A stretch of DNA of 64,000 nucleotides from Alphaproteobacteria bacterium (GTDB lineage: Bacteria > Pseudomonadota > Alphaproteobacteria > CAAGCB01 > CAG-977): assembly GCA_017616015.1 (NCBI GenBank), contig JAFZYY010000015.1:23787-87786 (forward strand), written 5' to 3'. Under the pieces are notes generated by a model, which saw only the letters and a list, made by a program, of their open reading frames with translations, ran no database searches and was not told the origin of the DNA. A program made the translations under genes and the position numbers. The first letter of the stretch is position 1. Each line of letters opens with the position of its first letter. Shown here piece by piece: positions 6,910 through 28,129 of the stretch.

Positions 6910-7600
6910 AAAAGTGACCCCCGCGTAAAACGCGGGGTTCTTTCTTGACGGGCATAGCCCTCATGCTACTGGCTACGCCTAAACGGCGTTTTGTTTGGTC
7001 TGGTGCGAGCAATTTGTTACTTACTACCCGTAAACGGGTCTGATATGTCCAGCGTCAGCTGATCTGATGCGGCGTCTTCTTCCAGTTGATGTTGGATATA
7101 TTCGGTTATCTTCTTTGTATTTTTCCCGACCGTATCCACATAATATCCTTTGCACCAGAATTCTCTGCTCCGGTATTTGTATCTGATATTACTCCATTGT
7201 TCATAAATCAGCAGACTGCTTTTTCCTTTCAGAAATCCCATAAATCCGGCCACACTTATCTTCGGTGGTATTTCGACCAACATGTGTATATGATCAGGAC
7301 ACGCTTCCCCTTCCAGAACATTTACTCCTTTCCATTTACATAATTTCCTTAGCATTTGGCCTATTTCGTATCGTTTCTCCCCGTAAAACACTTTGCGGCG
7401 ATACTTTGGGGCAAATACCACGTGATATTTACAATTCCATGTTGAATGTGATAGCGTATGCATATCATTCATATTGATTACTCCTTTGACTGCAATGCTC
7501 GTCGGTTCACCAGACCTCCTGCATTGTACCAAAGGAGTTTTTTTCTGCGCATAGCTATAAGCTTTTCTGAACCACGCGCCTAGCGCGTGGTTTTCGGGTT
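6910..7600 (-). mobile_element. IS200/IS605-family element (IS200 type, tnpA only); ends approximate
   Basis: Y1 transposase flanked by subterminal hairpins CCCCGCGT-AAA-ACGCGGGG (6919-6937) and AACCACGCGC-CTA-GCGCGTGGTT (7570-7592). An RBS-sequestering inverted repeat lies at 7480-7538. Confidence 0.88.
7017..7472 (-). CDS. tnpA: IS200-family Y1 (HUH) transposase
   Basis: HSTWNCKYHVVFAPKYRR, HUH motif DHIHML, KGKSS, FWCKGYYVDTVG and catalytic Tyr in YIQHQ; start at MNDM (7472) behind AAGGAG. Confidence 0.96.
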   Translation of the reverse strand: MNDMHTLSHSTWNCKYHVVFAPKYRRKVFYGEKRYEIGQMLRKLCKWKGVNVLEGEACPDHIHMLVEIPPKISVAGFMGFLKGKSSLLIYEQWSNIRYKYRSREFWCKGYYVDTVGKNTKKITEYIQHQLEEDAASDQLTLDISDPFTGSK

Positions 7601-7608: not shown

Positions 7609-8586
7609 TCAGGTCACTTCCGTCACTGCGCGGATATTGCCTTGACGGTTAATTTGAACGACACGCAGTTTATCATGCATTTCCGCTATTGTTTTCTCAC
7701 GATCGATTGTCGGATAACAGTGCAGAATACGGTCGGTAAACGCCTTATACGCCGCTTCGGAATTTTCCGCGTGAATTGTCGCAAAGCAGTTATCGTGCCC
7801 GGATCCCATCAATTCCCATAAAGCGCCCGCGTTCGCCGTTGAAATTTCACCGCCGATAATCGCGTCCGGCGTAAAGCGCACGACCAGGTCGATCAGCTTC
7901 GGATACGTCATCGTATTCGTTTGTTCGGTACGCGATAACACCAAATGAACGTGATTGGGGTGAGGCACGATCAATTCTCGGGTATCTTCAATCGTAATCA
8001 CGCGTTTGTGAGAATCCAAAATCGTCAGCAGATTGTTCAAAAAAGTCGTTTTACCGGTTGCCGTCGCACCGGAAACCAGAATGTGATCGCCGCGCTTAAT
8101 AGACAGAATTAAACGTTCGTAAGGGTCTTCCGGATTTTCGACTTCCTTCAGCTTATTAAGCTTCTGAAGACGTTCCCCTGACTTCAAACCGTAGTCCCCC
8201 AAGCCGAATTTAACATCGTCCGAATGCACACGGACGCACATGGCAATACCGCCGGTCAGGTCTTCGTTATCATACATAACGTTTTTGCCGGCTATTCCGG
8301 TAAAACGGTGATCTCCCGGCAATGTCGCATAAACCGTCGGGGATCCTTGTTCGGGATCGAACGGCAATTCAAAGGTATTGGCAATGATATGCATGATATC
8401 CGTCAGATACGTTCTGGATAAATTCTTATCCTGCTGACAGGCCCACGGATGCGCTCTGCGACCGCGCAGACGCAACCAGATTTCGTCCGGTCTGTTAATG
8501 GAAATTTCTTCAACATTATCCTGTTCGTACCAATACGACAAATAACGCAAAGTTGATTTTAATACCTGAAAAGAATCTGAACTCAT
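7609..8586 (-). CDS. virB11: Type IV secretion ATPase VirB11
   Basis: EISINRP, Walker A SGATATGKTT, Asp box TIEDTREL, Walker B PDAIIGGE and His box GH...TIHA; directly downstream of virB10. Confidence 0.9.
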   Translation of the reverse strand: MSSDSFQVLKSTLRYLSYWYEQDNVEEISINRPDEIWLRLRGRRAHPWACQQDKNLSRTYLTDIMHIIANTFELPFDPEQGSPTVYATLPGDHRFTGIAGKNVMYDNEDLTGGIAMCVRVHSDDVKFGLGDYGLKSGERLQKLNKLKEVENPEDPYERLILSIKRGDHILVSGATATGKTTFLNNLLTILDSHKRVITIEDTRELIVPHPNHVHLVLSRTEQTNTMTYPKLIDLVVRFTPDAIIGGEISTANAGALWELMGSGHDNCFATIHAENSEAAYKAFTDRILHCYPTIDREKTIAEMHDKLRVVQINRQGNIRAVTEVT

Positions 8587-8603
8587 ATTCTCATTCCCAA
8601 TCT

Positions 8604-11600
8604 TTAAAATAAATCCGGAACAGGTTCTTCCTGTTGCTGTTGTCTTTCCTGCATCTGTCTTTGCATTTCTTCCTGTTGTTTCCTCAGCTGCTGTTGCTGT
8701 TGTTGCCGCTGCCGATCCTCATCGGTTTCAACCAAGACAGATCTCTTTGGCTGTTGCTGTCCTCCGTAAGTATTATAGTACATTTGTTGTTGCTGTTGCA
8801 TATTAGCCGGGCTGTTCGGATTATTCGGATCGCCCTGAGCGCCCGGATCCTCCGGTTGGTTCGGATAACCGCCGCCGCTTTCGCTTGAAGGAATATTAGG
8901 ATCTTCGTCAGGTACCAGAACGCCGCTGCCTTTATTTTTGACGCTATTGCCTTCTTCATCTTCAACTTCGCTACGCAGCCATAAGTCCTGTTTGGCGAAA
9001 ACTGTGATGCGCGTTCCGGCCGGAACGAATAAACGCGTTTGAATTTTAGACGTTTCTCCCATAATATCATCAAAAATCAGCTGCATTGTCTGACCAAACT
9101 TCGTACGCGCATCTTTTGCCGCCTCCTGCCGACCGGACAAAGCGATTTCGCCGGCCTCACCTACGGTAGGTTTATCGGGCGAAGCCATCATCCACAAAAG
9201 CGCAGAAGTAATGGTAGACTGCAATAATGGCAAACCGTATTTTTTAACCAGCTGTCTGTCCATATAAGCGCCAAGCCCGCCGCGGCCGGAAGCATCGCCA
9301 CTGACACTGTCGCCGAAACTGAAAGCCGCACCGTCCGGACGGATTAAACGCGTCCATTTAACCTCCACTTTTGTTGCGGAACCCGGTCCATCAGCAGCAG
9401 ATCCCGACATTTCACCAATCAGACGACTGCCTGCGGGAATAATGATTTTTCGGCCGACTTCCGAGTAAATATTACGTTCAACAATCGCAGAGACAGGAAC
9501 ATCCGACTGTCCCGTATCAATGGATCGCACAATAACCGCAGGAATGGCTTTATCCGCTAAAATCATGTTTTCCATTTTAACCCGATACGAGGAAATATTT
9601 TTGCCGATTCCTAAATCCGTCCAGTTTGAGGCTCTTTTCTGCTTGCGCAACAAATCTTCTTTTTCCGGAATAGCCCCCGATCCCATACCCGGACGTATCT
9701 GTCTGCGATAAGCCATTTGCATACTACGCAATTGTTTAATTTTAACGGGATCATAACGTTCTCCTTTGCCTGTTCCGCCGCCCAGTCCCAGGTTTTTCCC
9801 CTGATAAATATATTTGGAAGGATCGAAAGTACCGAAAACAGATATTTTACTGTCGTTGACCGTTCCCTCTTCTTCCGGATCTTTGACAATATAATCGTTG
9901 ATGGAACCGGTAACGTTTCCGTTCACATCAACAATTGTTCCGTCCGGCAAAACACGGCCGATCACATTACCGTTTTCATCAACAAAAGTGCCGTCAGGCA
10001 ACAATGTTCCTATACGCTTTCCGTCTTTTCCGAAAACAAACCGCCCGCCTTTGGGTTTAGTTGTGCCGGACGACGACGACATTGTCAATTTTCCGCCATG
10101 CCACGTTCCCAAAACATTGCCGTCAGCGTCAATAATTTCTCCGTTGGCATTAATACGGCCGACAACATTGCCGCTCAAATCCACAACCGTACCGTCAGCC
10201 GTGATAACGCCGACAATATTGCCGTTGGCGTCGCGCACAGCTTCGCCTTCAACAGCGCGGCCGATCACGTTTCCGTTCATATCGACAATCGTTCCGTCAG
10301 GCAACACCCGACCGATAATATTGCCGTCTTTGTCACGGACATAACCGTCGTCGCCGATTATACCCAAAAACTTGCCGTCGCGTCCGATAGCCATACGAAC
10401 ATTTTTATCGGCCTGAGCAGGAGCAAAACCTTTAACCTGCCCGATTTTATTGCCGTTCATGTCCACAACGGTTCCGTCAGGAAGCATTTTGCCGATAATA
10501 TTGCCTTTCAAATCGACGACTGTTCCGTCCGGCAGAACACGGCCGATCACATTGCCGTTTTCATCATAAACCAAACGTTCCTGTTCTCCGTCATCATCGG
10601 TTTTTGCCAACAGATTTCCTTTTGAGTCAACAACACCGCCTGTCAGCAAAGCCCGACCGATCACGTTGCCGTTCAAATCAACGACCGTTCCGTTCGGTTG
10701 CATTTTACCGATAATGTTACCGTTTTCATCACGCAGGAAACCATCGGCGTCGACAATTCCCAGGAATTTGCCGTCAGGACTGAAAACGGCGCCTTTGGGA
10801 TAGACTTTTCCGATGACATTTCCCTTTAAGTCAACAACCGTTCCGTCCGGCAAAACCTGACCGATAACATTGCCGTCTTTATCACGGATCAAACCGTCGG
10901 CGCCGACAATACCCAAAGGCTTTCCGTCTGGGCCGTAAACCGTTTTTCCGATCAAACCTTTCGGGAATAACGAACCGTCTTCGTTAATACTGATCAAAGA
11001 AATCGTGCACAGGTGAGCTCCGGCATTGCTCAATGCCTGGCCGGTAGCCAGCAAACGCCCCAAAACCTGTTTCTTTTCATCAATAATCGTACCGTCGAAA
11101 TGGACTGTTCCGACGACTTTATTCTTTATGTTTTTACATTCTTCCCCGACAGGAACGACACGTCCTAAAAATTTCTGATCATCGCTTAAAACGCGCATAG
11201 AGGCAGTAACATAGCCGACTTCCTGTCCCTGATCGTCTTGCACGCGTCCGCGGGGCAGAACAGTTCCTACGATTTTGCCGTCCAAAGAAATGACACGCTG
11301 TCCGGACGGCACCAAAACGCCGATAGTATTGCCGTCAAGCCCTTTTATCTCTTTGTTGTCCGTAATCGTTCCGACGGAACCGCCGCCTTCCGGATTAACG
11401 CCGTAAGATCCGCCCACAACATGAGCAATGATATTTCCTTGCGTATTCACCGCATATTTCATATCGGAAGCGACACCGATAACTTTTTTACGCTTATCCG
11501 TAACCGCGCCGCTTATTGTCAAACACCCCAACACATTGCCCTGACTGTCCAAAGCTTCGCCGTTAGCAACCACCCTTCCGATGATGTTTTTGCCCGGTCC

Positions 11601-14600
11601 TGACACCTGACCTTTAGGAACGATACGTCCCAATCGTTTGCCGTTCTGGTCTCTGACCAATCCTTCCAAATCGACGCAGCCTATTTCTTTTCCTTTGGAA
11701 TCGATCGCTTTTCCTTCGACTGTCATCTGCCCGACTATTCCGCACGAATCGTCTATAATGGATTCTCCGCTTAACGCCAGACCGATTTGAGTGTTTGAAG
11801 AATTAATTAATGAACGGTCGTAATTAAGCCGACCGATATTTTGTCCGGCTTTATCAATGATATGTCCTTGATCATTAATGACACCCAACACCTGACAGCG
11901 CGGACCGACGGGAATGGCGTTGACGATACCTTTTCCGATTACGATATTCTTGTCGTCAGTAATTGTATCGTCGGCCTGAAGATTGCCCAGCAATTTATTG
12001 GATCTCGTTTCTCTGAGCTGCCCTATCGAATTAAGTCTTCCGATAACTTCGTTTTTAAAGTTCAATCCCAAACCGTCTTTAACGGAATAGCCGATCACGC
12101 TACCGTCCAAAGAAACAACCGTACCGTCCGGCAACATTCTGCCGATCGCCCTGCCGTTAAAGTCCACAACCGTACCGTCAGGCAAAATACGGCCGATCAC
12201 TTTGCCGTTTTCATCAAAAACAAGCTGATCGTATTCTCCCGCCATACCGATGACTTTGCCGTTTCTATCCACGACACTGCCGTCCGGCTGAACTTTTCCG
12301 ATTACCTTTCCTTCCAAATCGACAACCGTTCCGTCCGGCAAAACACGACCGATCACTTTGCCGTTTTCGTCATAAACAAGGCGTTCCAGCTGACCGATAT
12401 CCGCTTTGCCGATTGCGTTGCCTTCCAAATCGACAACCGTTCCGTCCGGCAAAACCTTACCGATCACTTTGCCGTCAAAATCGACAACCGTTCCGTCCGG
12501 CATAACACGGCCGATCACTTTGCCGTTTTCGTCATAGACCAAGCGCTCTGCCTGCGCATTGCCCGCTCTGCCGATAATATTACCGTTCGCATCTACAACG
12601 GTTCCGTCCGGCTGCATTTTGCCGATTTCTTTACCGTTAAAATCTACAACCGTCCCGTCTTCCAAAACACGACCAATCGGATTGCCGTTTTCATCGTAAA
12701 CCAAACGTTCCGGCTGTCCCGCTTTTCCGATCACGTTGCCGTTTTCGTCAACGACGGTGCCGTCCGGCTGCACTTTACCGATAGGCTTCCCTTTCAAATC
12801 CACGACGGTGCCGTCCGGCAGAACACGCCCGATCACATTGCCGTTTTCATCATAAACCAAACGCTCCAGCTGTCCGACACCCGCTTTGCCGATAACAGTG
12901 CCGTTCGAATCCACAACGGTGCCGTCAGGCAACACTTTTCCGATCGGATTGCCGTTTAAATCCACGACCGTACCGTCAGGCATAACACGACCGATCACCT
13001 TGCCGTTTTCATCATAAACGAACAAACCTCTTTCCGCCGCGCGGCCGATCACTTTATTGCTTTCTTCAACGACAGAGCCGCCCGCTCTATAGCGCATAGG
13101 CTTTCCGCCCGGGCCTAAAACAGGATTGCCGTCTTTGTCAACAATACTGCCGTCTAAACCGACATAACCGATAATTTTTCCGTCGGGTCCCATAATAGGC
13201 TGTCCGACAGGAATGACTTCCCCTATAATGCGGCCGTCTTTGTCAACAACCTGCCCGTTCAGATCCGCTTTGCCGATCACGCGTCCCGTCGCGTCAACAA
13301 CGGAACCGTCAGGCATAACGACACCTAAAATTTCTCCGTTCGGACCGATCACCTGGCGCATACCGACAAAAATCTTACCGACAACGGTATCCTTCTTATC
13401 CACGATTTCGCCGCTGGGCATTCTCAGATTTCCCAGATAACGTGCAGTTAAATCTATTGCCGTGCCGTCAGGAAGCAGACGACCGATTATCCGATTCGTT
13501 TTTATATCCAGAACATCGGCTTTGCGGGGAATAATCCCCCCGGAAATTGTATCTTTCTCTTTAACAAAGCCGCTGAGCGTAACGGTTCCGATAAAATCCG
13601 TTCCTTTAATATTCAGCGCTTTGGCAATAGAATCGCCGCGAGCGTAAAGTTCCGTTTTATTATTAACGGCAATTCCTTCCGGTAAAGCCGCGCCCAAAAA
13701 CTTTTTACTGCCGTCGACAAACAGAGAATCAGGACGCAAGCACCCTATCTTTTTGCCGGAAGAGTCATATAAAGAGCCGTCTTTATTCGCAACGCCCAAA
13801 AATTCGTCTTTACTGCTGATTGCGCGCGAAGCGAAAGCCACGCGGCCGAGAAAGTCTCCCTTGCTATCAACGAGCGCATCGTTCATTTGAATGTAGGCTT
13901 TACGTTTAAAGTTTTTATCAACAACACGACCGTCAATTAAAATATTTCCGACGGGATTGCATGCCTCTTTTAACGCTAAACCTTTATACGGAGCCACACG
14001 GGCAATCGTTTGTCCGCTCAGATCGACGATGCTACTGTCCGGCATAACACGGCCGTGTGTTTCCCCTTTTGCATTCGAAATCGTGCCGTCCGGCATAACC
14101 CAACCGACCGTGCGTCCGTCACGATCCAAAACGCCGCCGTAAGGCATTTCCATACCTACAACTTCGTTTTTAGAATCAAACGCCAGACCGCTGGGGTCCA
14201 TACAGCCCAGTATATTTCCGTTTTTGTCCTGTACTTTCCCGGATACGTCCATAATACCGGCAAGGCGTCCCTGATGATTCAATACGACGGACGAATCCAT
14301 AATCCGTCCCAAAACTACCTTTTTATCATCTAAAATTTCGCCGTTTGCCGTCAAATCACCGACAAAATCGCCCTTTGTCGTAAAGACATGCCCTTCAACG
14401 TTTGCATATCCCAGAGTAACGCAACCCGGAGCAATTCCCACGTCCTGTTTTGCCAAAGCACCTTCTATATTTCCGGCTTTGGATAAAAACGTCTTATCCG
14501 GTAAAATACGTCCTTTTATCTGCCCGTCACCGACAACCGAACCGTCCGGCATCACATGACCGATGACTCCGCCTTGATTGCCGATAACTGTTCCTTTGGG

Positions 14601-16148
14601 CAAGACAGCGGCTACGATTTCTTCGTCATCATTAATAACCGTTCCGTATGGTGTCAGACACCCTAAAGGCTCGCCTTTAAACGATACCGGTTTACCGTCC
14701 GTGTCAACTTTACCGACGATTTTGCCTTTCCAGTCGATTAACGCGCCTTCTTCAACATAACCGGCAATAGGATTTCCACCGAGATCGACAACGATATTCG
14801 AAGCCGTCAAACGCCCGACCTGACGGTTACTTGACATCACGGAACCGTCCGTACTGACTCTTCCGACTAATTTGCAGCCGGATCCGATAGCCAAACCTTC
14901 TTTAATAGCGCGGCCGATAATATTGCCGTCTTTATCCACAACCAAACCGTTGGGCAAAACACGACCGATAACATTGCCGTCCGCATCAACCACAGAACCG
15001 TCCGGCATCACAATACCCAACGGCTTGCCTGAAGAGTCCACAACCGTTCCCTGGCGAGCTACGGTACCGATGATATTACCGTCCGCATCAACGATCGTAC
15101 CGTCCGGATTAACAAAGCCGATAACATTGCCGTTTTCATCAACAACTCTGCCGTCCGGCAAAATCCGGCCGATAACGTTGCCGTTTTTATCATAAGCCAA
15201 ACCTGTCGTAATGGCCGCGCCGATCACATTATTGTTAAGATCGACTATTGTGCCGTCCGGCAAAGCATAGCCGATCAAACGGCCGTCTTTATCAACCACG
15301 CGTCCGTCGGGCAAAATTGTTCCCAGGATTTCGCCGTTTGGTCCGATAGCCAGCCTTTGCCCTTCCACAACGCCGATCACATATCCCTGATCATCAACGA
15401 CCGTGCCGTCTTCGCGCAAAGTCCCTATTCTTTTGCCGTCCAATCCGTAAACGACGCCGTTTTCGTCGGCATAACCGATCGGTTTGCCGTCAGGGCCTAA
15501 AATAACGCGGCCTTTTTTACGCAACTGATCAATCATTGATCCGCCGCCGCCACCCGGCGCTTCATCGCAAACGCCGCACAGGCTGGTATCAATAGCCATT
15601 GCGGAAATCGGAACGAGGACTTTCCGACCTATGCCGCCGAAAGTCTCGTCAACCCAACGAATAGCCAGATTGGACTGCATCGTGCGGGCGGTTTTCGGTT
15701 CCCAGCGAACAACAACGTTGCAGGTTACGTCTCCGGACAAGACGACGTCTTTGCGGCATTTGTTTTCCAGAATGAAACCTTCTTCCTGCTTGTTTTCAAA
15801 TTCGACGGACGTAATACCGATTTTACCGGAAGAAGCCGATAACGTTAAAGTACCTTCCGCTTCGGTTCCCAAAACGACCTGATCGAACCGCATGCTTTCG
15901 GGAGAAACAACCAATCTGACCGTCGGCGGTAAATCAAACGTATCCGTTTCACCTTTGGCAATGCCCGTAACACCGTCAGCTGACCCGTTAAATGCAATTT
16001 CGGCGTCTTTCTTTTGTTCTTCTCCTCCGCTCAGCAGTATAATAACCCCCATCAGAAACGCCAGCAGGGCAATAATCCCAACGATCAACAGCGTTCTGTT
16101 GGATTTTTTTAGATATTTGTCTGATGAGCTAAGTAATTCTTCGTTCAT
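8604..16148 (-). CDS. virB10: Giant VirB10/TrbI-family T4SS core protein (~2,514 aa): N-terminal TM, Ig-like domain, long beta-hairpin repeat region, VirB10 domain, Gln-rich tail
   Basis: C-terminal VirB10 motifs IPAVIVRSIDT, IPAGSRLIG, VKWTRLIRPDG, DASGRGG and VPAGTRITVF. The ATG at 16148 overlaps the virB9 stop (ATGA). It sits between virB9 and virB11. Confidence 0.88.
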   Translation of the reverse strand: MNEELLSSSDKYLKKSNRTLLIVGIIALLAFLMGVIILLSGGEEQKKDAEIAFNGSADGVTGIAKGETDTFDLPPTVRLVVSPESMRFDQVVLGTEAEGTLTLSASSGKIGITSVEFENKQEEGFILENKCRKDVVLSGDVTCNVVVRWEPKTARTMQSNLAIRWVDETFGGIGRKVLVPISAMAIDTSLCGVCDEAPGGGGGSMIDQLRKKGRVILGPDGKPIGYADENGVVYGLDGKRIGTLREDGTVVDDQGYVIGVVEGQRLAIGPNGEILGTILPDGRVVDKDGRLIGYALPDGTIVDLNNNVIGAAITTGLAYDKNGNVIGRILPDGRVVDENGNVIGFVNPDGTIVDADGNIIGTVARQGTVVDSSGKPLGIVMPDGSVVDADGNVIGRVLPNGLVVDKDGNIIGRAIKEGLAIGSGCKLVGRVSTDGSVMSSNRQVGRLTASNIVVDLGGNPIAGYVEEGALIDWKGKIVGKVDTDGKPVSFKGEPLGCLTPYGTVINDDEEIVAAVLPKGTVIGNQGGVIGHVMPDGSVVGDGQIKGRILPDKTFLSKAGNIEGALAKQDVGIAPGCVTLGYANVEGHVFTTKGDFVGDLTANGEILDDKKVVLGRIMDSSVVLNHQGRLAGIMDVSGKVQDKNGNILGCMDPSGLAFDSKNEVVGMEMPYGGVLDRDGRTVGWVMPDGTISNAKGETHGRVMPDSSIVDLSGQTIARVAPYKGLALKEACNPVGNILIDGRVVDKNFKRKAYIQMNDALVDSKGDFLGRVAFASRAISSKDEFLGVANKDGSLYDSSGKKIGCLRPDSLFVDGSKKFLGAALPEGIAVNNKTELYARGDSIAKALNIKGTDFIGTVTLSGFVKEKDTISGGIIPRKADVLDIKTNRIIGRLLPDGTAIDLTARYLGNLRMPSGEIVDKKDTVVGKIFVGMRQVIGPNGEILGVVMPDGSVVDATGRVIGKADLNGQVVDKDGRIIGEVIPVGQPIMGPDGKIIGYVGLDGSIVDKDGNPVLGPGGKPMRYRAGGSVVEESNKVIGRAAERGLFVYDENGKVIGRVMPDGTVVDLNGNPIGKVLPDGTVVDSNGTVIGKAGVGQLERLVYDENGNVIGRVLPDGTVVDLKGKPIGKVQPDGTVVDENGNVIGKAGQPERLVYDENGNPIGRVLEDGTVVDFNGKEIGKMQPDGTVVDANGNIIGRAGNAQAERLVYDENGKVIGRVMPDGTVVDFDGKVIGKVLPDGTVVDLEGNAIGKADIGQLERLVYDENGKVIGRVLPDGTVVDLEGKVIGKVQPDGSVVDRNGKVIGMAGEYDQLVFDENGKVIGRILPDGTVVDFNGRAIGRMLPDGTVVSLDGSVIGYSVKDGLGLNFKNEVIGRLNSIGQLRETRSNKLLGNLQADDTITDDKNIVIGKGIVNAIPVGPRCQVLGVINDQGHIIDKAGQNIGRLNYDRSLINSSNTQIGLALSGESIIDDSCGIVGQMTVEGKAIDSKGKEIGCVDLEGLVRDQNGKRLGRIVPKGQVSGPGKNIIGRVVANGEALDSQGNVLGCLTISGAVTDKRKKVIGVASDMKYAVNTQGNIIAHVVGGSYGVNPEGGGSVGTITDNKEIKGLDGNTIGVLVPSGQRVISLDGKIVGTVLPRGRVQDDQGQEVGYVTASMRVLSDDQKFLGRVVPVGEECKNIKNKVVGTVHFDGTIIDEKKQVLGRLLATGQALSNAGAHLCTISLISINEDGSLFPKGLIGKTVYGPDGKPLGIVGADGLIRDKDGNVIGQVLPDGTVVDLKGNVIGKVYPKGAVFSPDGKFLGIVDADGFLRDENGNIIGKMQPNGTVVDLNGNVIGRALLTGGVVDSKGNLLAKTDDDGEQERLVYDENGNVIGRVLPDGTVVDLKGNIIGKMLPDGTVVDMNGNKIGQVKGFAPAQADKNVRMAIGRDGKFLGIIGDDGYVRDKDGNIIGRVLPDGTIVDMNGNVIGRAVEGEAVRDANGNIVGVITADGTVVDLSGNVVGRINANGEIIDADGNVLGTWHGGKLTMSSSSGTTKPKGGRFVFGKDGKRIGTLLPDGTFVDENGNVIGRVLPDGTIVDVNGNVTGSINDYIVKDPEEEGTVNDSKISVFGTFDPSKYIYQGKNLGLGGGTGKGERYDPVKIKQLRSMQMAYRRQIRPGMGSGAIPEKEDLLRKQKRASNWTDLGIGKNISSYRVKMENMILADKAIPAVIVRSIDTGQSDVPVSAIVERNIYSEVGRKIIIPAGSRLIGEMSGSAADGPGSATKVEVKWTRLIRPDGAAFSFGDSVSGDASGRGGLGAYMDRQLVKKYGLPLLQSTITSALLWMMASPDKPTVGEAGEIALSGRQEAAKDARTKFGQTMQLIFDDIMGETSKIQTRLFVPAGTRITVFAKQDLWLRSEVEDEEGNSVKNKGSGVLVPDEDPNIPSSESGGGYPNQPEDPGAQGDPNNPNSPANMQQQQQMYYNTYGGQQQPKRSVLVETDEDRQRQQQQQQLRKQQEEMQRQMQERQQQQEEPVPDLF
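12085..13030 (-). repeat. Six tandem 52-54-codon repeats inside virB10 (ERLVYDENGxVIGRVxPDGTVVD...), each built from three ~17-aa subrepeats; another copy at ~10430-10580
   Basis: Visible in both protein and DNA (recurring ccgttttc[a/g]tc[a/g]taaac and accgttccgtccggc). Degenerate versions extend from ~9900 to ~15500. Confidence 0.9.
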
Positions 16149-17659
16149 TGCGTCCGCACAACCATACACGTCACCCCACGGCGACCTAATTGATTACATA
16201 ATTTATCCCCTGCTTCGATACTATCGACAGGCCCGATGCGCAAACGGAACATATCTTTAGCTTCACCTTCAGCAACGGTATCTATCGAATAGTACGGCTC
16301 GAAATTCCCAAGCAAATCCTTGTTTTTCCGGGCAATACCGTCCCATTTTTTCTCTAATGCCGAAATATCGCTGTCCGTGCCGAGCTCTATTGCAAAACCG
16401 CCTTCCGAAGAATTGCGATAAGAGCGAATATAGCTTTGACTCCTCGGTTGTTGCATAGAAAACTGCATGATTTGATTAGCGCTTAAGGTTCCGTTTGCCC
16501 CCATAGGCATCATCGTCATGCCGTTGTTCGGCATATTCCCCTGTGCCGTAGCGGAAACATTCCCATTATAACCGCCCGTCGTAATCATCGGACCGGGAGA
16601 CCATTTCGGCTGAACGGAAGCTTCGTATTCTACAAACTCCGTTCCGAAAGCGGGATCTTTTCTGATTTTCAGACACAGCAAACGCTTGCCGTTGCGCAAC
16701 ACCAAATCACCGATGCCTTCAACAACCATCAGTCGTCCGTTCGGTCCCCGCGTTCTGAAACCGACAGGAACTTCCGAGCCCTGAGAAAGCAAATTGACAA
16801 TCGGACGTTCCATCATCGTCAGCGCCTTCGGTCCGAAATCAATATACGTAAATATTTCATCACGCCACACACGTTCGGGAGCGATTTCCATATCCGCAGG
16901 ATTAGGAACGAAAACATCAATGTCAAACCGAAGTTTTTCGGGATCCACTTCCATATCGACCAACCAATCTTCCGTCGGATTCTTGGTTGTTTTTTTACCC
17001 GAGCCGGCAGAGCCGCCTTTTCCGCTAAAACCGCCGCCGAAACCGCCGCCTGAGGAAACCGTGCCCGAAGACGCCGGCGTCAGTCCGGAATCGTCGGGAA
17101 CGAATTTTGCGTCATTAACAAGAATATCCACGACGGAGTTTGTGATTCTGTCCGTATTGAACGTTTCGCTTCTGAGATAGAAAACATATCTGTTTCCGGA
17201 ACGACCGAAAACAATCATATTGGTGTCCATGCCGACCAAATCAACGGAAGCCGCAAAGATCATCAATGCGTTTGAAGCCACTTTCTGCGCGCCGAAAGCG
17301 CTTTCGTTGCCGATAAAAACGTTTTCAATCAATTCCCATGACGGAAAATTAACCAACGTGTGCATGCCTTCACGGATACGCAACGGCAAAACCAAATCCG
17401 GCGTCCAGTAATATCTGGAATATCCCGGTTTGGATTGACCTTCGCCCAAATGCTCCATCGGCTTGTTCCAGGCTTTTTGCTGCATGCCTACAGACCAAAA
17501 CGGCATATCTATTTCCGAATATTGCCCGTTTGATTGTTCAATCGCCGCGTCCATGGATTCTCTGGCAGCCGTTTGTTGTTGCGCCGAAACGGATTGAGAC
17601 ATCAGGCAACAAAAAACGGAAACAACTGTAAAAAGGCGGATTTTCAAATATCTTTTCAC
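16145..17659 (-). CDS. virB9: VirB9/TrbG-family T4SS outer-membrane core protein with a C-terminal SPOR-like domain
   Basis: Signal peptide. VirB9-like segments DTNMIVFGRSGNRYVFYL, IAPERVWRDEIFTYIDF and LVLRNGKRLLC. The C-terminus FAIELG...FRLRIGPVDSIEAGDKLCNQLGRRGVTCMVV is typical of alphaproteobacterial SPOR domains. Confidence 0.85.
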   Translation of the reverse strand: MKRYLKIRLFTVVSVFCCLMSQSVSAQQQTAARESMDAAIEQSNGQYSEIDMPFWSVGMQQKAWNKPMEHLGEGQSKPGYSRYYWTPDLVLPLRIREGMHTLVNFPSWELIENVFIGNESAFGAQKVASNALMIFAASVDLVGMDTNMIVFGRSGNRYVFYLRSETFNTDRITNSVVDILVNDAKFVPDDSGLTPASSGTVSSGGGFGGGFSGKGGSAGSGKKTTKNPTEDWLVDMEVDPEKLRFDIDVFVPNPADMEIAPERVWRDEIFTYIDFGPKALTMMERPIVNLLSQGSEVPVGFRTRGPNGRLMVVEGIGDLVLRNGKRLLCLKIRKDPAFGTEFVEYEASVQPKWSPGPMITTGGYNGNVSATAQGNMPNNGMTMMPMGANGTLSANQIMQFSMQQPRSQSYIRSYRNSSEGGFAIELGTDSDISALEKKWDGIARKNKDLLGNFEPYYSIDTVAEGEAKDMFRLRIGPVDSIEAGDKLCNQLGRRGVTCMVVRTQ

Positions 17660-17671
17660 GGGACACCTTCT

Positions 17672-18457
17672 TTATTCATTAGCACTTTCTATCGCATACC
17701 TGTCAACGGCAAAACCGAGCGGATTTTTCAATCGATCGACATATTTAACCTCACGCTGATCCTGCGTAAAGTATTTTACCGACAAACGAATACGCCAACG
17801 GGAAACGACGGGTTCTTCAGCTTCCGGCAACATATCGCGCGTTATAATATAAACCAACCATGTATTTTGGTTTCGGACAACGGATTCAATACGAACTTCA
17901 CGCGTTAGACCTTCCAGTTTGATTCTGGACAGCCAGTCTTTAACCGTCTTATTAAACTGATTATAAACCTGGGGAGATGACATCCAGCGCAAAGGACCGT
18001 CCGTTCCCCAACGGTAAGACATTTCATCAATATCCGAAATCATTGTATTGCGCAACAGAACATATTGGCGGATCATCGCTTCGGAAATAATGTCTTCCGC
18101 CGCCATATCCTTTGCCAAAGGCTGTATTTTAACCACCTGTTCGTCACGGTTCTGGAATGTCAGCAAAAACGGTTCCGCGCGCTTTAACGGCATTAAATGC
18201 AAGATAGCCAGAAGTAAAACCAAATTAACGCAAAGCGCAACGGCAGACACGATTGCAAACGCGCGCGCGGTCCACAGATAACGGCGTTCTCTGAGAGCGT
18301 CTACGGAAACTTCTTCCCGGCTGGAAGAACTTTGCCGCGGTGCCGCGGGCTTTTTTACACTGCTTTCGACTGCCGCGGCATTGCTTTTTGCCGGAACGGC
18401 TTTATTTTCCGCGTTCTTAACCGTAAGCTGCTGTTTTGATCTGGTTGGCTTTGGCAT
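17672..18457 (-). CDS. virB8: VirB8-family T4SS inner-membrane protein (second copy)
   Basis: One TM followed by LMPLKRAEPFLL, YVLLRN, MSSPQVYNQF and the C-terminal NPLGFAVDRY signature. Confidence 0.88.
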   Translation of the reverse strand: MPKPTRSKQQLTVKNAENKAVPAKSNAAAVESSVKKPAAPRQSSSSREEVSVDALRERRYLWTARAFAIVSAVALCVNLVLLLAILHLMPLKRAEPFLLTFQNRDEQVVKIQPLAKDMAAEDIISEAMIRQYVLLRNTMISDIDEMSYRWGTDGPLRWMSSPQVYNQFNKTVKDWLSRIKLEGLTREVRIESVVRNQNTWLVYIITRDMLPEAEEPVVSRWRIRLSVKYFTQDQREVKYVDRLKNPLGFAVDRYAIESANE

Positions 18458-18473
18458 ACTTATATTCTTTCAC

Positions 18474-18659
18474 TTATCCGTTAACCGACAGCCAGTCCGG
18501 CAAATCCGACGGGAGTTTCAACAACATGCAAGCACACGGAGAACGCTTCAGTTCCGAAATATCCGGACCGATGCCGACCGGTTCTTTTTCATAAATGGAA
18601 CACGCGCCTAAAACAGCACAGAGTCCAATCATAAAAATCGCTTGTTTCACTCTTTTCAT
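18474..18659 (-). CDS. virB7: Small lipoprotein, putative VirB7
   Basis: Lipobox LGA-C and ELKRSPCAC motif, located between two virB8 genes. GAGGGAG RBS before MKRVKQ (18659); alternative TTG start at 18674. Confidence 0.65.
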   Translation of the reverse strand: MKRVKQAIFMIGLCAVLGACSIYEKEPVGIGPDISELKRSPCACMLLKLPSDLPDWLSVNG

Positions 18660-18674
18660 TTTTTTCTCCCTCAA

Positions 18675-19391
18675 CTACTGTTTCTGTCCCGCCACATAAT
18701 ACTGCGTCACCGTAAATCCCATCGGATTGCGCAGTCGGGACGCCATCACAGCGTTTGACGCATAATACCGGAACTGTATTGTTGCCAGCCAGTGTTCAAT
18801 TTTCGGTTCACTGATATTGCTTTCGACCTTGCGCGTGTCAAAAAAGATCTGCCAACTGTTCCACCCTTCCTTAAAAATCCGTTTAATATCTGTATCAATC
18901 ATAATTTCGGGCGTTCCTTCTCTATCCATATCTCCGTCCGAAAAATACCTTCTGACTTCTTTGTTCACAAAAGCATCGTAGACTTCCCAAGTTGACAGAC
19001 GCTGCACCACGCCGCCGGGTCCCCACATAATCTGCATTTCACGGATATTCGGCAAAAAGTTGTTTCTGGCCGTCAGGTACTGACGAACAAACATTTCCGC
19101 CAGAATATCCATTGCCGGCATATCCGGGTGGAGCGGTTCAAAATAAGCCAGATTATCCGAAAATGTCGGAGCCGTCACCAAAACGGAAGAAACGTCCGCC
19201 TCTTTGGCGATATGAATCAAAGAAAGAGACAAAACGGAACAGGAAAGCACCAAAATAAAACACAGAACGTTGAAAAAACGCGACAGAAACATAAAAATGG
19301 CCAAACGCCCGCCTGTCGCCCGAGGCCTTTCAGAACCGGCGGTTTTATTGGTTTCCTGGCGAACAGACGCCTTTGACACACTTTTTTCCAT
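18675..19391 (-). CDS. virB8: VirB8-family protein (first, more divergent copy)
   Basis: One TM, FVRQYLTARN, LSTWEVYDAF and C-terminal NPMGFTVTQY; paralogous to 17672-18457. Confidence 0.8.
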   Translation of the reverse strand: MEKSVSKASVRQETNKTAGSERPRATGGRLAIFMFLSRFFNVLCFILVLSCSVLSLSLIHIAKEADVSSVLVTAPTFSDNLAYFEPLHPDMPAMDILAEMFVRQYLTARNNFLPNIREMQIMWGPGGVVQRLSTWEVYDAFVNKEVRRYFSDGDMDREGTPEIMIDTDIKRIFKEGWNSWQIFFDTRKVESNISEPKIEHWLATIQFRYYASNAVMASRLRNPMGFTVTQYYVAGQKQ

Positions 19392-19431: not shown

Positions 19432-19468
19432 ATTATAAATAAAGAGAGCTTTTTTTTAAACTCTCTTT
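19432..19468 (-). promoter_or_regulatory. Putative virB operon promoter overlapping a hairpin that may terminate rhlE
   Basis: Minus strand TTTAAA-17 bp-TATAAT (19460-19432); inverted repeat AAAGAGAG/CTCTCTTT at 19441-19468. Confidence 0.4.
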
Positions 19469-26293: not shown

Positions 26294-28129
26294 TTAGTTC
26301 GGATATAACGGCGGAACGGGAATTTTTTCATCTTCAGCGTTCTTTTTTTCGTCAGGTCGGGCAAATTTAAATGCCAGCCATAAATCTTCTCCGTTCCATT
26401 CGTCCGGTTTGACCGCATACAACGCGCGGTTTAAACTGTCGGTTTCCTCTTTTAACGCCTCGCTGTTCAGCCGAGATGCCAATTCGGAAAGAGTTAAAGG
26501 AGAATTATCCGGCCAATGAATGCGCCCCCAATCCAGCAACGCCTGTTTTGCTCCTTCCGCCGATCCGGAGCGGCAAGCTTCTTTAAGCCGCTGAACCGCA
26601 GCAGAATCGTTTTTTTTCTTTTGTTCCGACAAAGAAACGGCGTCTTTTTTCTTAAGCATCAGGAAATAGAACAAAAGCCACAAACTCAGAACTACCGTCC
26701 CGCCGGCCACGATACCGGCAGCAAACAAAATAAAAGGCGAGTGATCGGCATGTTTTTTCCAAAAAGCCTGCGCAGCCTGCTGTTCCGCTGTATTTTCCGG
26801 CGGTTCGGAAAAAGCTTTGGCAAATTCCGATTCTTTTTTCACCGGCTCCTGTTGATCCTGTGAGGGTATCACAGTCGTTTGAACAGACGGCGGCTCAGCA
26901 ATAGAAGATTCCGGCGTATCATCTCCCGTCACGGTAATCGTGCGCGATGGCAAAACGGCTTTTTTCATTTTTCCCGTTTTGACGTCAAACCACGATATTT
27001 CTAACGGCGGTAAATCGATATTTCCCGCAACGGTGGGCATGAAAACTATCTGGCGCGTTTTCACCCCGACAATTCCTTCGTCGTCAAACAGGTTTTTGGA
27101 ATCCGTCTTTCCGGGATATTGCTTATACTTTTCGCCGTTTGCAAAAACCAAATCGGGAATCTGAGAATCCTGCACGCCGGAAGCCATCACGGTCACTGTT
27201 CTGGTCAAAGCTTCCCCCAACGCGATCGTTTGTTTCGGCGGCGTTAAATCTTCCGACACGGCGACATCGGTTGCCGGCAGCCAATAATTTCCCGCAACGG
27301 AAGCAGCCGGACGCACATTCAAAACAATGGGCTCCGATTGAACGACAATGTTTTTTTGTCCGAAAAAGCCCGAAAAAATACCGGTTCCGCCCATACCGAA
27401 AAGATCTTCTATTTCCTGCATTTTCGTATCGGGATCGCTGACGGATCCTCTGAACTGAGCCGGAGAAAGCTCCAACTTACCGCTTTTCTGAGCGAACAGC
27501 AGAAATTGATATTCCAATACATCATACGTTCTGGCGTGAATTTTTTCCCTGAATCGATTAACGTCCCCCCACTGTTCGACCGTGACGCCGTCTGCTTTGG
27601 GCGGAAGAACCGTTCCGTCCAAAAGAGGCGTTTGAACAAAAGAATACAAGCGCACCGTCAACGGAATTTGCTGACCGACGTACGGGTCTTTGTTTTCCAA
27701 CGTATAACGAACGAATACGTTCGGCTGTGCCGTCTGAGCTTTCTGACGGGCGACAGGATCATCGGGCAAAGCCTGACCGCCGGCAATAACCGTTAAGGTA
27801 ATCGGAGCCGTTTTTTCTTTTCCGGCCTGAATGGAAGGCAAAATAACTTTGCCCGTTTTTTTAGGAACCAATGTTAAAATGTTTTCGTTAAACGTTTGCG
27901 TTTTACCGTTAACATAGCTTGATTTGTAGCTTTTACGCTCCATTGTGATCAGAAAATCTTTGTTTAAAACGGAAATGTCGGGTTTCGCGCCGTTTCCGTC
28001 CTGACGCAAATAAAGCTGAAAGCTTTCACCTTCGGGAATAACCGTGCGGCTGACGCTGGCTTCAAAAGCAACGGCGTTGCGGCATAAGGCAAACATGACA
28101 AGAAATAAGAATAGCATTCTGTTTTTCAT
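26294..28129 (-). CDS. batD: BatD-family protein
   Basis: Signal peptide, repeated Ig-like BatD modules (PYVGQQI, WLPA, GEALTRTV, WFDV), a C-terminal TM and a PPLYP end; downstream of the VWA genes. Confidence 0.85.
   Translation of the reverse strand: MKNRMLFLFLVMFALCRNAVAFEASVSRTVIPEGESFQLYLRQDGNGAKPDISVLNKDFLITMERKSYKSSYVNGKTQTFNENILTLVPKKTGKVILPSIQAGKEKTAPITLTVIAGGQALPDDPVARQKAQTAQPNVFVRYTLENKDPYVGQQIPLTVRLYSFVQTPLLDGTVLPPKADGVTVEQWGDVNRFREKIHARTYDVLEYQFLLFAQKSGKLELSPAQFRGSVSDPDTKMQEIEDLFGMGGTGIFSGFFGQKNIVVQSEPIVLNVRPAASVAGNYWLPATDVAVSEDLTPPKQTIALGEALTRTVTVMASGVQDSQIPDLVFANGEKYKQYPGKTDSKNLFDDEGIVGVKTRQIVFMPTVAGNIDLPPLEISWFDVKTGKMKKAVLPSRTITVTGDDTPESSIAEPPSVQTTVIPSQDQQEPVKKESEFAKAFSEPPENTAEQQAAQAFWKKHADHSPFILFAAGIVAGGTVVLSLWLLFYFLMLKKKDAVSLSEQKKKNDSAAVQRLKEACRSGSAEGAKQALLDWGRIHWPDNSPLTLSELASRLNSEALKEETDSLNRALYAVKPDEWNGEDLWLAFKFARPDEKKNAEDEKIPVPPLYPN

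What the first reader, a model, noticed from the sequence alone, without database searches (positions are those of the whole stretch)
7609..19391. Chromosomal T4SS core with Rickettsiales-like gene order (virB8-virB7-virB8-virB9-virB10-virB11) in an apparent anaerobic gut alphaproteobacterium
Seen: a tightly packed six-gene operon with duplicated virB8 flanking a small SPC-motif lipoprotein. There is no relaxase, integrase or other ICE gene nearby, and the flanks are housekeeping. Known: the Rickettsia rvh locus has the order B9a-B8a-B7-B8b-B9b-B10-B11-D4, with its other components scattered. Inference: a domesticated, non-conjugative protein-secretion system, heavily remodelled (giant VirB10, SPOR-fused VirB9), used for host interaction, predation or interbacterial attack. 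This is the best candidate in the window for an undescribed system.
Basis: partly seen in the sequence, partly recalled or inferred. Interest (0 to 1): 0.88.

Follow-up and report, generated by a model that had tools for sequence, protein, structure and literature searches.

The report
Remodelled chromosomal type IV secretion system
Uncultured gut Alphaproteobacteria with small genomes all carry an inherited, non-mobile type IV secretion machine with a giant repeat-filled VirB10 and a cell-wall-anchored VirB9, which probably serves contact with other cells rather than plasmid transfer.

Summary
Window 7609-19391 (minus strand) holds a tight six-gene operon: virB8a, a 66-aa lipoprotein (VirB7-like), virB8b, virB9 fused to a SPOR domain, a 2521-aa virB10, and virB11. 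The rest of the machine lies elsewhere in the 2.09-Mb genome: virB2 and virB4 with five secreted proteins, three tandem virB6 paralogues, two virD4 paralogues, and a third solo virB8. The locus sits at the same chromosomal site in four genera of the family. Its hallmarks (B8-B7-B8, SPOR-VirB9, VirB10 of 1273-2831 aa built of beta-hairpin/beta-flower repeats) recur in several other families of small-genome gut Alphaproteobacteria. No relaxase is linked, and the only relaxase type found is patchy and mobile. The best plasmid VirB11 is 39.8% identical. The likeness to the Rickettsiales rvh system is real in layout (duplicated VirB8 around VirB7, multicopy VirB6, scattered islets). However, two rvh hallmarks tested here (VirB4 and VirB9 duplication) are not met and virD4 is unlinked. 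The nearest sequence relatives are Holosporales- and Rhodospirillales-labelled systems and a Sphingosinicella conjugative plasmid. My verdict is a domesticated, undescribed variant of the VirB/D4 T4SS. Its substrate and target remain unknown.

The parts
18675..19391 (-). virB8a: the divergent, faster-evolving VirB8 paralogue (238 aa, one TM helix at 43-61)
   Evidence: Pfam VirB8 34.2 bits. 30% identical to VirB8b, E 1.6e-22. TM helix. Longer branches than VirB8b in the tree.
18474..18674 (-). virB7-like lipoprotein (66 aa; lipobox Cys25; invariant K-x-SPCAC)
   Evidence: No Pfam or NCBIfam family. Alignment of 18 homologues. The same small gene lies upstream of virB8 in group B loci and in the Sphingosinicella plasmid.
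17672..18457 (-). virB8b: the canonical VirB8 (261 aa, TM helix at 68-86)
   Evidence: Pfam VirB8 84.7 bits. The best PDB matches are Bartonella VirB8, E 7e-4.
16145..17659 (-). virB9 with signal peptide, Gly/Ser linker, C-terminal domain, a Q/M/N-rich linker and a C-terminal SPOR domain (residues about 451-502, i.e. 16154-16309)
   Evidence: Pfam CagX 50.2 bits and SPOR 24.3 bits. The SPOR tail is present in 15 of 15 group A VirB9 and in 0 of 4 group B VirB9.
8604..16169 (-). Giant virB10 (2521 aa): TM helix about 25-50; Ig-like 'choice-of-anchor D' domain 87-171; about 110 17-residue beta-hairpin units at residues about 220-2090 (9900-15512); TrbI barrel 2203-2398 (8976-9563); Gln-rich tail
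   Evidence: An alternative ATG start at 16148 would overlap the virB9 stop by 4 nt.
7609..8586 (-). virB11 ATPase (325 aa; Walker A GATATGKT at residue 173)
   Evidence: NCBIfam TIGR02788 145.8 bits. Conserved catalytic columns. Walker motif.
19432..19460 (-). Promoter-like site (TTTAAA-17-TATAAT) in the 125-nt gap upstream of virB8a
   Evidence: Consensus scan, 10 of 12 matches. This is a pattern match only, not evidence of function.

Best explanation
This is the outer-membrane-core and ATPase operon of a complete, vertically inherited VirB/D4-type T4SS. It has been domesticated by a radiation of uncultured, small-genome, animal-gut Alphaproteobacteria. SHOWN: the genome encodes all main parts. 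These are VirB2 pilin, VirB4, three tandem VirB6 paralogues, the VirB7-like lipoprotein, three VirB8 paralogues, VirB9, VirB10, VirB11 and two VirD4 coupling proteins with intact Walker motifs. They are spread over at least five chromosomal sites, and none has a linked relaxase. INFERRED assembly: the ATPases and the VirB6/VirB8 paralogues form the inner-membrane platform. VirB7, VirB9 and the VirB10 C-terminal barrel form the outer-membrane core. The SPOR domain on VirB9 pins that core to peptide-free glycan strands of peptidoglycan. The roughly 1900-residue array of small beta-hairpin modules in VirB10, anchored in the inner membrane at one end and in the outer-membrane barrel at the other, builds an oversized periplasmic, or partly exposed, scaffold. 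It is likely to bind carbohydrate or the cell wall. INFERRED function: the two coupling proteins recruit protein substrates that are delivered by contact into another cell (a bacterium, protist or host cell), rather than moving a plasmid. The target and the substrates are unknown.
For: Completeness: VirB4, VirD4 x2, VirB6 plus two paralogues, VirB2, a third VirB8, Walker motifs. Vertical inheritance: full-length VirB9-SPOR occurs in 23 of 24 other family genomes, the exception being 89% complete. The flanks are the same in four genera. Both D4 types and VirB8c occur in 24 of 24. The families with two or three sampled genomes each form their own clade in the VirB11 tree. Breadth: VirB11 at 56-97% identity occurs in 20 further genomes across 11 families, out of 401 class-wide genomes. 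The best 80 named loci are all gut or animal MAGs. 991 clusters of giant VirB10 were found. Not conjugative in context: TrwC and MobA/MobL families gave no match, and one small PF03432 relaxase lies on another contig beside uvrD. That relaxase type is patchy (17 of 24), multicopy, up to 92-94% identical across genera, and sits beside separate conventional T4SS genes in relatives. Best plasmid VirB11 is 39.8% among 3857 matching records. Remodelling is conserved: SPOR in 15/15 and beta-flower repeats in 17/17 group A pieces, against 0/4 and 0/4 in the nearest chromosomal relatives. The repeat segment folds as all-beta hairpin modules (pLDDT 81.6). Its only local likeness is to Rhs/YD shells and to the beta-hairpin repeat (CROP) domains of clostridial toxins and the glucansucrase entries in the same list.
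Against: No substrate, effector, target or expression datum was obtained. The nearest named relative is a conjugative-type plasmid system with a MobA/MobL relaxase. The VirB10 barrel scores best against ComB10 of a DNA-uptake system. Coupling proteins serve DNA transfer as well as protein transfer. Roles for the SPOR domain and the repeats are inferred from family annotations only. It is unclear how about 1900 folded residues per VirB10 copy fit in a periplasm. VirB1, VirB3 and VirB5 were not identified by any profile.
Confidence: 0.6

Rival explanations
1. It is a DNA-handling T4SS: chromosomal conjugation, DNA release, or DNA uptake as in ComB. It would give these gut bacteria gene exchange rather than protein delivery.
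For: The VirB10 barrel scores best against ComB10 (NCBIfam 102.4 bits against 87.1 for VirB10; PDB 2bhv E 7e-18). The sister lineage in the VirB11 tree is a plasmid system with MobA/MobL, topoisomerase and primase genes. Two coupling proteins are conserved. ComEC is encoded in the window at 39543-41615. Small relaxases occur in 17 of 24 family genomes.
Against: No relaxase is linked to any of the T4SS loci. The relaxase type is patchy and mobile, while the T4SS is universal in the family. From recall, not from a call: ComB-type uptake systems lack VirB11 and VirD4, both of which are present and highly conserved here.
Confidence: 0.17
2. It is mainly an adhesion or surface-fibre organelle, comparable to Bartonella Trw or to the CagY-decorated Cag pilus. 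The VirB10 repeat array and the four small secreted proteins after virB4 would mediate attachment to a partner cell, with little or no substrate transfer.
For: The repeat array is huge and evolves fast: 43-60% identity against 96-98% for VirB11 within the family, with length 1273-2831 aa. Four signal-peptide proteins of 226-260 aa plus a 631-aa secreted helical-stalk protein follow virB4. One of the four has a VirB5-family look-alike cluster (a lead only). A partner-dependent lifestyle has been proposed for the related order Rs-D84 (PMC12306168, passages).
Against: Two coupling proteins and VirB11 are conserved with intact NTP-binding motifs. From recall: Trw lacks a coupling protein. The N-terminal TM helix and C-terminal barrel place the repeats topologically in the periplasm.
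Confidence: 0.15
3. It is a decaying remnant of an integrated conjugative element, with no present function.
For: An IS200-like transposase gene abuts virB11. The system is split over several loci. In some families VirB10 is in two ORFs.
Against: All six ORFs are intact, and the orthologues show no stops. VirB11 is 96-98% identical across genera. The synteny is conserved. The VirB10 split in two genera of one family has a conserved end (QEVAKNRRN*) with different stop codons, so it is a stable two-gene form. The transposase is not at that site in relatives.
Confidence: 0.03

Closest known systems
Rickettsiales vir homolog (rvh) T4SS
   Same: A duplicated VirB8 flanks VirB7 and is followed by B9-B10-B11; the R. 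typhi order is given in PMC4676284. One VirB8 copy evolves faster than the other (the same is reported for Rvh-II in that paper). VirB6 is multicopy and tandem: 3 copies here and 4-5 in four of the five other-family arrays fetched. The components lie in scattered chromosomal islets with no relaxase.
   Different: VirB4 and VirB9 are single-copy, and virD4 is unlinked and itself duplicated. VirB8 is present in three copies. VirB10 is giant and VirB9 carries SPOR; neither feature is among the rvh traits in the passages read. No match to RvhB8-II (4O3V) was found. A phylogeny against named rvh proteins could not be made.
Helicobacter pylori Cag T4SS (CagY, a giant VirB10 homologue)
   Same: A VirB10 homologue is enlarged to about 2000 residues or more by a long repeat region ahead of the C-terminal barrel. 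CagY chains of 1927 aa match the barrel only.
   Different: Similarity is confined to about 110 residues of the barrel (E 4e-6 to 5e-5). The repeats here are 17-residue beta-hairpins of the beta-flower/DUF3659 type. That CagY repeats are of another kind is recalled, not tested. No other Cag-specific component was seen.
Conjugative-type T4SS of Sphingosinicella sp. BN140058 plasmid p1 (NZ_CP035502.1)
   Same: This is the closest named relative. VirB11 is 39.8% identical, VirB4 37% and VirD4 33%. It is sister to the whole gut clade in the VirB11 tree, with 100/99 support but a long branch. It has the same SPCAC VirB7-like gene upstream of virB8.
   Different: It is plasmid-borne and has MobA/MobL, topoisomerase and primase genes. 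It has a single VirB8, a VirB10 of 548 aa, and virD4 linked. No SPOR was looked for on its VirB9 of 430 aa.
Chromosomal B7-B8-B9-B10-B11-D4 systems of small-genome Alphaproteobacteria labelled Holosporales, Dongiaceae and Telmatospirillum ('group B' here)
   Same: VirB11 is 40-43% identical and VirD4 40-45%. They share the SPCAC VirB7 and enlarged multicopy VirB6-like genes.
   Different: They have a single VirB8 and a single VirB4 per system. VirB10 is 505-579 aa without beta-flower repeats, VirB9 has no SPOR tail, and virD4 is linked.

Membership tests
VirB/D4-type (P-type, MPF_T-like) T4SS | VirB4 ATPase | tested here: met
   PF03135 55.7 bits on contig C22 in an 826-aa ORF. Walker A GSTGQGKT and Walker B LIMIDE.
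VirB/D4-type (P-type, MPF_T-like) T4SS | Core proteins VirB8, VirB9 and VirB10 plus VirB11 | tested here: met
   All are over the Pfam cut-offs. All are far below the NCBIfam equivalog cut-offs, so they are divergent.
VirB/D4-type (P-type, MPF_T-like) T4SS | VirB6, VirB2 pilin and VirD4 coupling protein | tested here: met
   TrbL 38.9 bits; TrbC 28.8 bits against a cut-off of 27.9; T4SS-DNA_transf 194.8 and 125.5 bits.
VirB/D4-type (P-type, MPF_T-like) T4SS | VirB1, VirB3 and VirB5 | tested here: inconclusive
   No Pfam hit among the neighbours. VirB4 has two N-terminal TM segments, and a small TM ORF lies between virB2 and virB4. One secreted 226-aa protein has a 'VirB5 family' look-alike cluster, score 0.92 (a lead only).
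rvh (hallmarks as listed in PMC11077975, Methods passage) | RvhB8 duplication | tested here: met
   There are three VirB8 paralogues. Two flank VirB7. The third is solo on C10 and is conserved in 24 of 24 family genomes.
rvh (hallmarks as listed in PMC11077975, Methods passage) | RvhB9 duplication | tested here: not met
   A profile of 19 VirB9 sequences finds one VirB9 among 19,996 ORFs of the 98%-complete genome. The only other hit is a SPOR protein.
rvh (hallmarks as listed in PMC11077975, Methods passage) | RvhB4 duplication | tested here: not met
   One PF03135 match. phmmer with VirB4 finds only itself.
rvh (hallmarks as listed in PMC11077975, Methods passage) | Multicopy RvhB6 | tested here: met
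   Three tandem polytopic paralogues of 739, 487 and 503 aa; pairwise E 7e-22 and 4e-6. In other families, arrays of 4-5 in four of the five fetched and 2 in the fifth, which lies on a 15-kb contig.
rvh (hallmarks as listed in PMC11077975, Methods passage) | No VirB5 analogue | tested here: inconclusive
   No profile hit. However, four secreted proteins of 226-260 aa follow virB4, and one has a VirB5-family look-alike.
rvh (hallmarks as listed in PMC11077975, Methods passage) | Islet order B8-II, B7, B8-I, B9, B10, B11, D4 | tested here: inconclusive
   The order B8a-B7-B8b-B9-B10-B11 matches. However, virD4 is on another contig and no second B9 is present.
rvh (hallmarks as listed in PMC11077975, Methods passage) | Proteins group with Rickettsiales Rvh proteins in a phylogeny | not testable with these tools
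   No named rvh sequence could be fetched. Indirect evidence: 4O3V (RvhB8-II) is absent from the PDB hit lists, and no name of a known Rickettsiales genus appears among the named rows. Six loci carry the submitters' label 'Rickettsiales bacterium'; these belong to the gut clade itself.
Plasmid/ICE conjugation system | Linked relaxase and residence on a mobile element | tested here: not met
   No relaxase was found on the window contig or on the other T4SS contigs. The chromosomal site is the same in four genera. Composition is not deviant.
Xanthomonas-type bacteria-killing T4SS | VirB7 with a C-terminal N0 domain, and effectors with XVIPCD domains (definition recalled) | tested here: inconclusive
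   The mature VirB7-like protein is only about 42 aa, so it has no room for an extra domain. XVIPCD effectors were not searched for, because no profile was at hand.

The most novel reading that the evidence does not exclude
The beta-hairpin array of VirB10, together with the SPOR-anchored VirB9 and the secreted proteins encoded after virB4, turns this T4SS into a large attachment-and-exchange organelle. Through it, partner-dependent, genome-reduced gut Alphaproteobacteria would dock onto other cells (bacteria, protists or epithelium) and take or deliver macromolecules. It would be a lineage-defining machine comparable in standing to rvh for Rickettsiales or Dot/Icm for Legionellales, built with a structural principle not seen in any solved T4SS.
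Probability: 0.17. Interest if true: 0.85.

Novelty: new variant of a known kind. Interest (0 to 1): 0.68.

Why it matters
These Alphaproteobacteria are widespread in human, livestock, rodent and insect guts. None of the related records found here is a cultured isolate, and how they live is unknown. For the related order Rs-D84 a partner-dependent life has been proposed without naming any machinery (PMC12306168, passages). A universally retained, highly conserved and oddly built T4SS is the most obvious candidate for how they touch other cells. For T4SS biology it offers three things. First, a further case of VirB10 gigantism beside CagY (DotG is recalled as another), built from a fold with no clear match among the solved structures searched. 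Second, a VirB9-SPOR fusion, for which one full-text search found no paper. Third, a second lineage with a duplicated VirB8 around VirB7 and multicopy VirB6. That last point bears on whether these 'rvh signatures' are ancestral or convergent.

Tried and rejected

2. Expression: no RNA holder was listed for window 9392-19391.

3. VirB7-VirB9 binding: complex prediction with the VirB9 C-terminal domain (228-350) and the mature lipoprotein (25-66) gave no verdict. The score was 0.07 against a mark of 0.32.

4. VirB10 repeat model against solved structures. Foldseek gave only local hits, with TM-scores mostly 0.10-0.21. The wide VIA search gave 0 chains with Z>=5.

5. The 631-aa secreted protein. 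It had no Pfam family and no Atlas hit. Its AF2 model was good (pLDDT 77.4, pTM 0.67), but no Foldseek match reached E<=0.001.

- The TLC family matched nothing in five group B genomes, but it also rang in no control genome, so this is uninformative.
- Genomes with tandem VirB6 triplets (G160, G311) proved to have ordinary contiguous B4...B8-B10-B11-D4 clusters.

7. Group B as rvh: rejected, because VirB4 and VirB8 are single per system.

8. Enterousia-like 0.9-Mb genomes. VirB11 stands alone at its locus. A TrbI-domain ORF of 833-843 aa lies elsewhere. This was not followed further.

9. Literature searches. None returned a paper on this system.
- RF32 + 'type IV secretion': 0 papers.
- Six-term search: 6 papers, none containing 'type IV secretion'.
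- 'Enterousia': 16 papers.
- VirB10 + VirB9 + 'SPOR domain': 0 papers.
- Six-term search on gut, MAG and VirB: 7 papers, none on this clade judging by title and abstract. The Hepatincola paper was read in passages only.

Full report
**Observation.** Gaps between them are 12-17 nt, or the genes overlap (translations).
- Pfam identifies VirB8 (34.2 bits), no family for the 66-aa protein, VirB8 (84.7 bits), CagX/VirB9 (50.2) plus SPOR (24.3), TrbI/VirB10 (103.8) plus Bflower_2 (481.3), Bflower (201.8), DUF3659 and RHS-repeat matches, and a T2SSE ATPase.
- NCBIfam names the ATPase VirB11 (145.8 bits). Every hit is far below its equivalog cut-off, so the system is divergent.
- The small protein has a lipobox cysteine and an invariant K-x-S-P-C-A-C motif in all 18 aligned homologues.
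- The flanks are housekeeping genes. The one exception is an IS200-like transposase gene directly downstream of virB11. It is single-copy in the genome and is not at that site in relatives.
- A promoter-like site lies in the 125-nt gap upstream of virB8a. It is a pattern match only.

**The rest of the machine.** The window is part of contig C31 of a 2.09-Mb assembly with 34 contigs, 98% complete.
- Contig C22 carries virB2, a small TM ORF and virB4 (826 aa, with two N-terminal TM segments). These are followed by four signal-peptide proteins of 226-260 aa and a 631-aa secreted protein.
- Contig C12 carries virD4a, two paralogous membrane proteins, two soluble proteins and three tandem polytopic VirB6 paralogues.
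- Contig C8 carries a second coupling protein, VirD4b (35% identical to D4a), among aminopeptidase, pentapeptide-repeat and flavodiiron genes.
- Contig C10 carries a third, solo VirB8 (44.9 bits) among housekeeping-looking ORFs.
- VirB4, both VirD4 proteins and VirB11 have Walker A motifs; Walker B-like motifs were found by pattern in VirB4 and VirD4a only.
- Profiles find only one VirB9 and one VirB4 in the genome.

**No linked relaxase.** The TrwC and MobA/MobL families gave no match. The one PF03432 match is a 347-aa protein on contig C4 beside uvrD.
- Its relatives occur in 17 of 24 other family genomes. They are often multicopy, at 36-94% identity, and reach 92% between genera.
- In several relatives they lie on the same contigs as a separate, conventional set of VirB9, VirB11 and VirD4 genes that are about 30% identical to the ones studied here.
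- So the relaxases belong to ordinary mobile elements, not to this system.

**Conservation within the family.**
- A full-length VirB9-SPOR orthologue (63-84% identity) was found in 23 of 24 other genomes of the family. The exception is 89% complete.
- Six related loci were fetched. Four, from four genera, show the whole six-gene operon at the same chromosomal site (the DEAD helicase/isochorismatase flank in all four, FlaF and its neighbour in three). VirB10 is 2218-2676 aa at 43-60% identity, and VirB11 is 96-98% identical.
- Of the other two loci, one is cut by a contig end and one is a 7.4-kb contig holding a second partial copy.
- VirD4a (79-91%), a D4b-type copy and VirB8c (47-73%) occur in 24 of 24.

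**Conservation beyond the family.** In a class-wide sample of 401 genomes, 52 have a VirB11 match at E<=1e-20.
- Twenty-one of them, in 11 families with genomes of 0.9-2.5 Mb, match at 56-100% ('group A', which includes the window's genome).
- Nine, in five families, match at 40-43% ('group B'). The rest match at 37% or less.
- Fourteen group A loci were fetched:
  - Eight show B8a-B7-B8b-B9-B10-B11.
  - One lacks a detectable B8a.
  - Two are cut by contig ends.
  - Three, from 0.9-Mb genomes, show VirB11 alone, with a TrbI-domain ORF of 284-843 aa elsewhere in the genome.
- VirB10 in these loci is 1930-2831 aa. In three genomes it is split into two adjacent genes. In two genera of one family the split has the same protein end but different stop codons.
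- In four genomes the homologue of the 631-aa protein lies directly upstream of B8a, and in one of them homologues of two of the small secreted proteins lie next to it. So at least part of the virB4-islet gene set is joined to the B8-B11 operon in other families. VirB4 itself was not found there by BLAST.
- The SPOR tail is present in 15 of 15 group A VirB9 and in 0 of 4 group B VirB9. Pfam detects SPOR in 14 of the 19 scanned. My regex matched 11 of 15, and the other four show the same tail with substitutions.
- Beta-flower matches occur in 17 of 17 group A VirB10 pieces and in 0 of 4 group B.
- Tandem VirB6-like arrays have 4-5 genes in four of the five other-family arrays fetched; the fifth, on a 15-kb contig, shows two.
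- These genomes are related to one another, so the counts are not independent.

**Who they are.** The best 80 (53-96% identity) are all MAGs. Their titles read uncultured Alphaproteobacteria, 'Azospirillum sp.', Candidatus Scatocola, Candidatus Enterousia or 'Rickettsiales bacterium'. Where the titles name a source, it is the human gut, chicken, ruminant, horse, mouse or another animal. A protein search found 991 clusters of giant (1386-4412 aa) VirB10 relatives. The best 120 all carry beta-flower plus TrbI domains. Where a name is given, it is only 'TrbI/VirB10 family', 'DUF3659 domain-containing' or 'hypothetical'.

**Relatives of the system.**
- Against 72,556 plasmids, VirB11 matches 3857 records, all below 60% identity. 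The best, at 39.8%, is Sphingosinicella sp. BN140058 plasmid p1. That locus has MobA/MobL, VirB4, an SPCAC VirB7-like gene, B8-B9-B10-B11-D4, a topoisomerase and a primase.
- A VirB11 tree was built from 39 rows with IQ-TREE. Group A is monophyletic (98/95). The Sphingosinicella protein is its sister (100/99, but on a long branch). Group B and two other chromosomal systems fall in the same larger clade (100/99). IncX, IncI2, Campylobacter, Xanthomonas pXCV2 and Rhizobium VirB11 fall in the other half.
- Group B loci have B7-B8-B9-B10(505-579 aa)-B11-D4, with a single VirB8 and a single VirB4 per system. A group B VirB11 is held under the name '[Holosporales bacterium]'. Its named relatives are Dongiaceae, Telmatospirillum, Rhodospirillaceae and Roseovarius.
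- All solved T4SS proteins are distant. The VirB10 barrel scores best against ComB10 (7e-18), then CagY. VirB8b scores best against Bartonella VirB8 (7e-4) and VirB8a against Brucella VirB8 (3e-5). VirB11 scores about 5e-15 against three VirB11 structures.

**Comparison with rvh.**
- The R. typhi order rvhB9-I, rvhB8-II | rvhB7, rvhB8-I, rvhB9-II, rvhB10, rvhB11 | rvhD4 is stated in PMC4676284 (passages).
- The rvh hallmarks (duplication of RvhB8, RvhB9 and RvhB4; multicopy RvhB6; no VirB5 analogue) are stated in PMC11077975 (Methods passage). Its Fig. S1 and the supplements were not seen.
- Met here: VirB8 duplication, multicopy VirB6, and the B8-B7-B8-B9-B10-B11 order.
- Not met: VirB9 and VirB4 duplication.
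- Differing from the R. typhi islet: virD4 is not linked.
- Open: the VirB5 question.
- In a VirB8 tree of 26 rows, the B8b copies form one clade (94/88) with B8c beside it (83/72, long branch). The B8a copies lie outside on branches about twice as long. Both paralogues recover the same family pairs, so the duplication predates the radiation.
- The solved RvhB8-II (4O3V) is absent from the hit lists of both copies.
- I could not fetch named Rvh sequences, so whether the shared layout is ancestral or convergent remains open.

**The giant VirB10.**
- Reading the sequence gives: a short cytoplasmic start; one TM helix at about 25-50; an Ig-like domain (choice-of-anchor D, 87-171); about 110 units of 17 residues (consensus x-x-P-D-G-T-V-V-D-x-x-G-N-x-I-G) from about 220 to 2090; the TrbI barrel at 2203-2398, with two helices in the place of the antenna (read from the sequence); and a Gln-rich tail.
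- Residues 1043-1365 form six 54-residue super-repeats. At DNA level this is a 162-nt unit, 5.7 copies, 74% matches. That is not a near-identical array.
- AlphaFold2 on this segment, with a 14-row alignment, gives an all-beta hairpin model (pLDDT 81.6, pTM 0.48).
- Foldseek finds only local likeness to Rhs/teneurin YD shells, clostridial CROP repeats and designed propellers (TM-scores mostly 0.10-0.21). The wide structural search finds no chain with Z>=5.
- The beta-flower families were defined from predicted structures. [quoted passage not shown] **Reading.**
- Shown: a complete, conserved, chromosomal VirB/D4-type system without a linked relaxase, with clade-specific remodelling.
- Inferred:
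  - SPOR anchors the outer-membrane core to peptidoglycan.
  - The repeat array forms an oversized scaffold between the two membranes, or a partly exposed one.
  - The two coupling proteins feed protein substrates to a contact-dependent channel.
- Rivals (DNA handling, adhesion only, decay) are weighed in their own sections.
- No expression data could be obtained, and the one complex prediction gave no verdict.
- I found no paper describing this system with the searches listed under Tried and rejected. The one comparative paper read on the related order Rs-D84 does not contain the word 'secretion'.

Noticed in passing
window 7017-7532 (-): An IS200-like Y1 transposase gene (Pfam Y1_Tnp, 127 bits) lies 76 nt downstream of virB11. 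It is single-copy in the genome and is not at this site in related genomes, so it is probably a recent insertion.
   Followed up: partly
window 52203-54521 (+): Three tandem paralogous type IVb pilin-like genes (212, 235 and 209 aa). They match the Pfam Bundlin, PilS and TcpA families and have a prepilin-like N-terminus. This would be a second surface-fibre system in the same window.
   Followed up: partly
window 39543-41615 (+): ComEC-type competence protein (Pfam Competence, 198 bits), flanked by two 550-aa ORFs that match no family (34977-38262).
   Followed up: no
window 26294-30971 (-): A Bat-like cluster: a BatD/DUF7939 protein, a VWA+TPR protein and a VWA protein in a row.
   Followed up: no
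G000:C10:33622-34365 (L189:1623-2366, -): A third, solo VirB8 paralogue among housekeeping genes. It is conserved in all 24 other family genomes searched.
   Followed up: yes
L064:5851-13994 (G080), L066:220-8274 (G251), L063:6918-16895 (G131): VirB10 is encoded as two adjacent genes: a TM-plus-repeats part, and a repeats-plus-barrel part. In G080 and G251 the first part ends with the same residues but a different stop codon, so the split is stable.
   Followed up: partly
L030 (G006:C31:1-7373): A second, more divergent partial copy of the B8a-B7-B8b-B9 cluster lies on a 7.4-kb contig of one related genome, which has 4% contamination. It may come from a co-binned strain.
   Followed up: no
G002:C2:18959-42524, G015:C19, G016:C3, G004:C3, G005:C8, G013:C64 (places listed): Several relatives carry an additional conventional T4SS (VirB9, VirB11 and VirD4 about 30% identical to the system studied) together with a relaxase. 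Some of the matches contain in-frame TGA or TAA stops. They look like ordinary integrated or plasmid conjugative elements, partly decayed.
   Followed up: no
L009:4468-6363 (-) = G000:C22: A 631-aa secreted protein conserved across the gut clade. It is predicted with good confidence to be a long helical stalk with a globular insert, and it has no significant Foldseek match among solved structures. In four genomes of two other families it lies directly upstream of virB8a.
   Followed up: partly
L007:9890-13910 (G000:C12): Between virD4a and the VirB6 array lie two paralogous membrane proteins (345 and 355 aa) and two soluble proteins (217 and 340 aa) that match no family. The 340-aa one stays next to the VirB6 array in three other families.
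   Followed up: no
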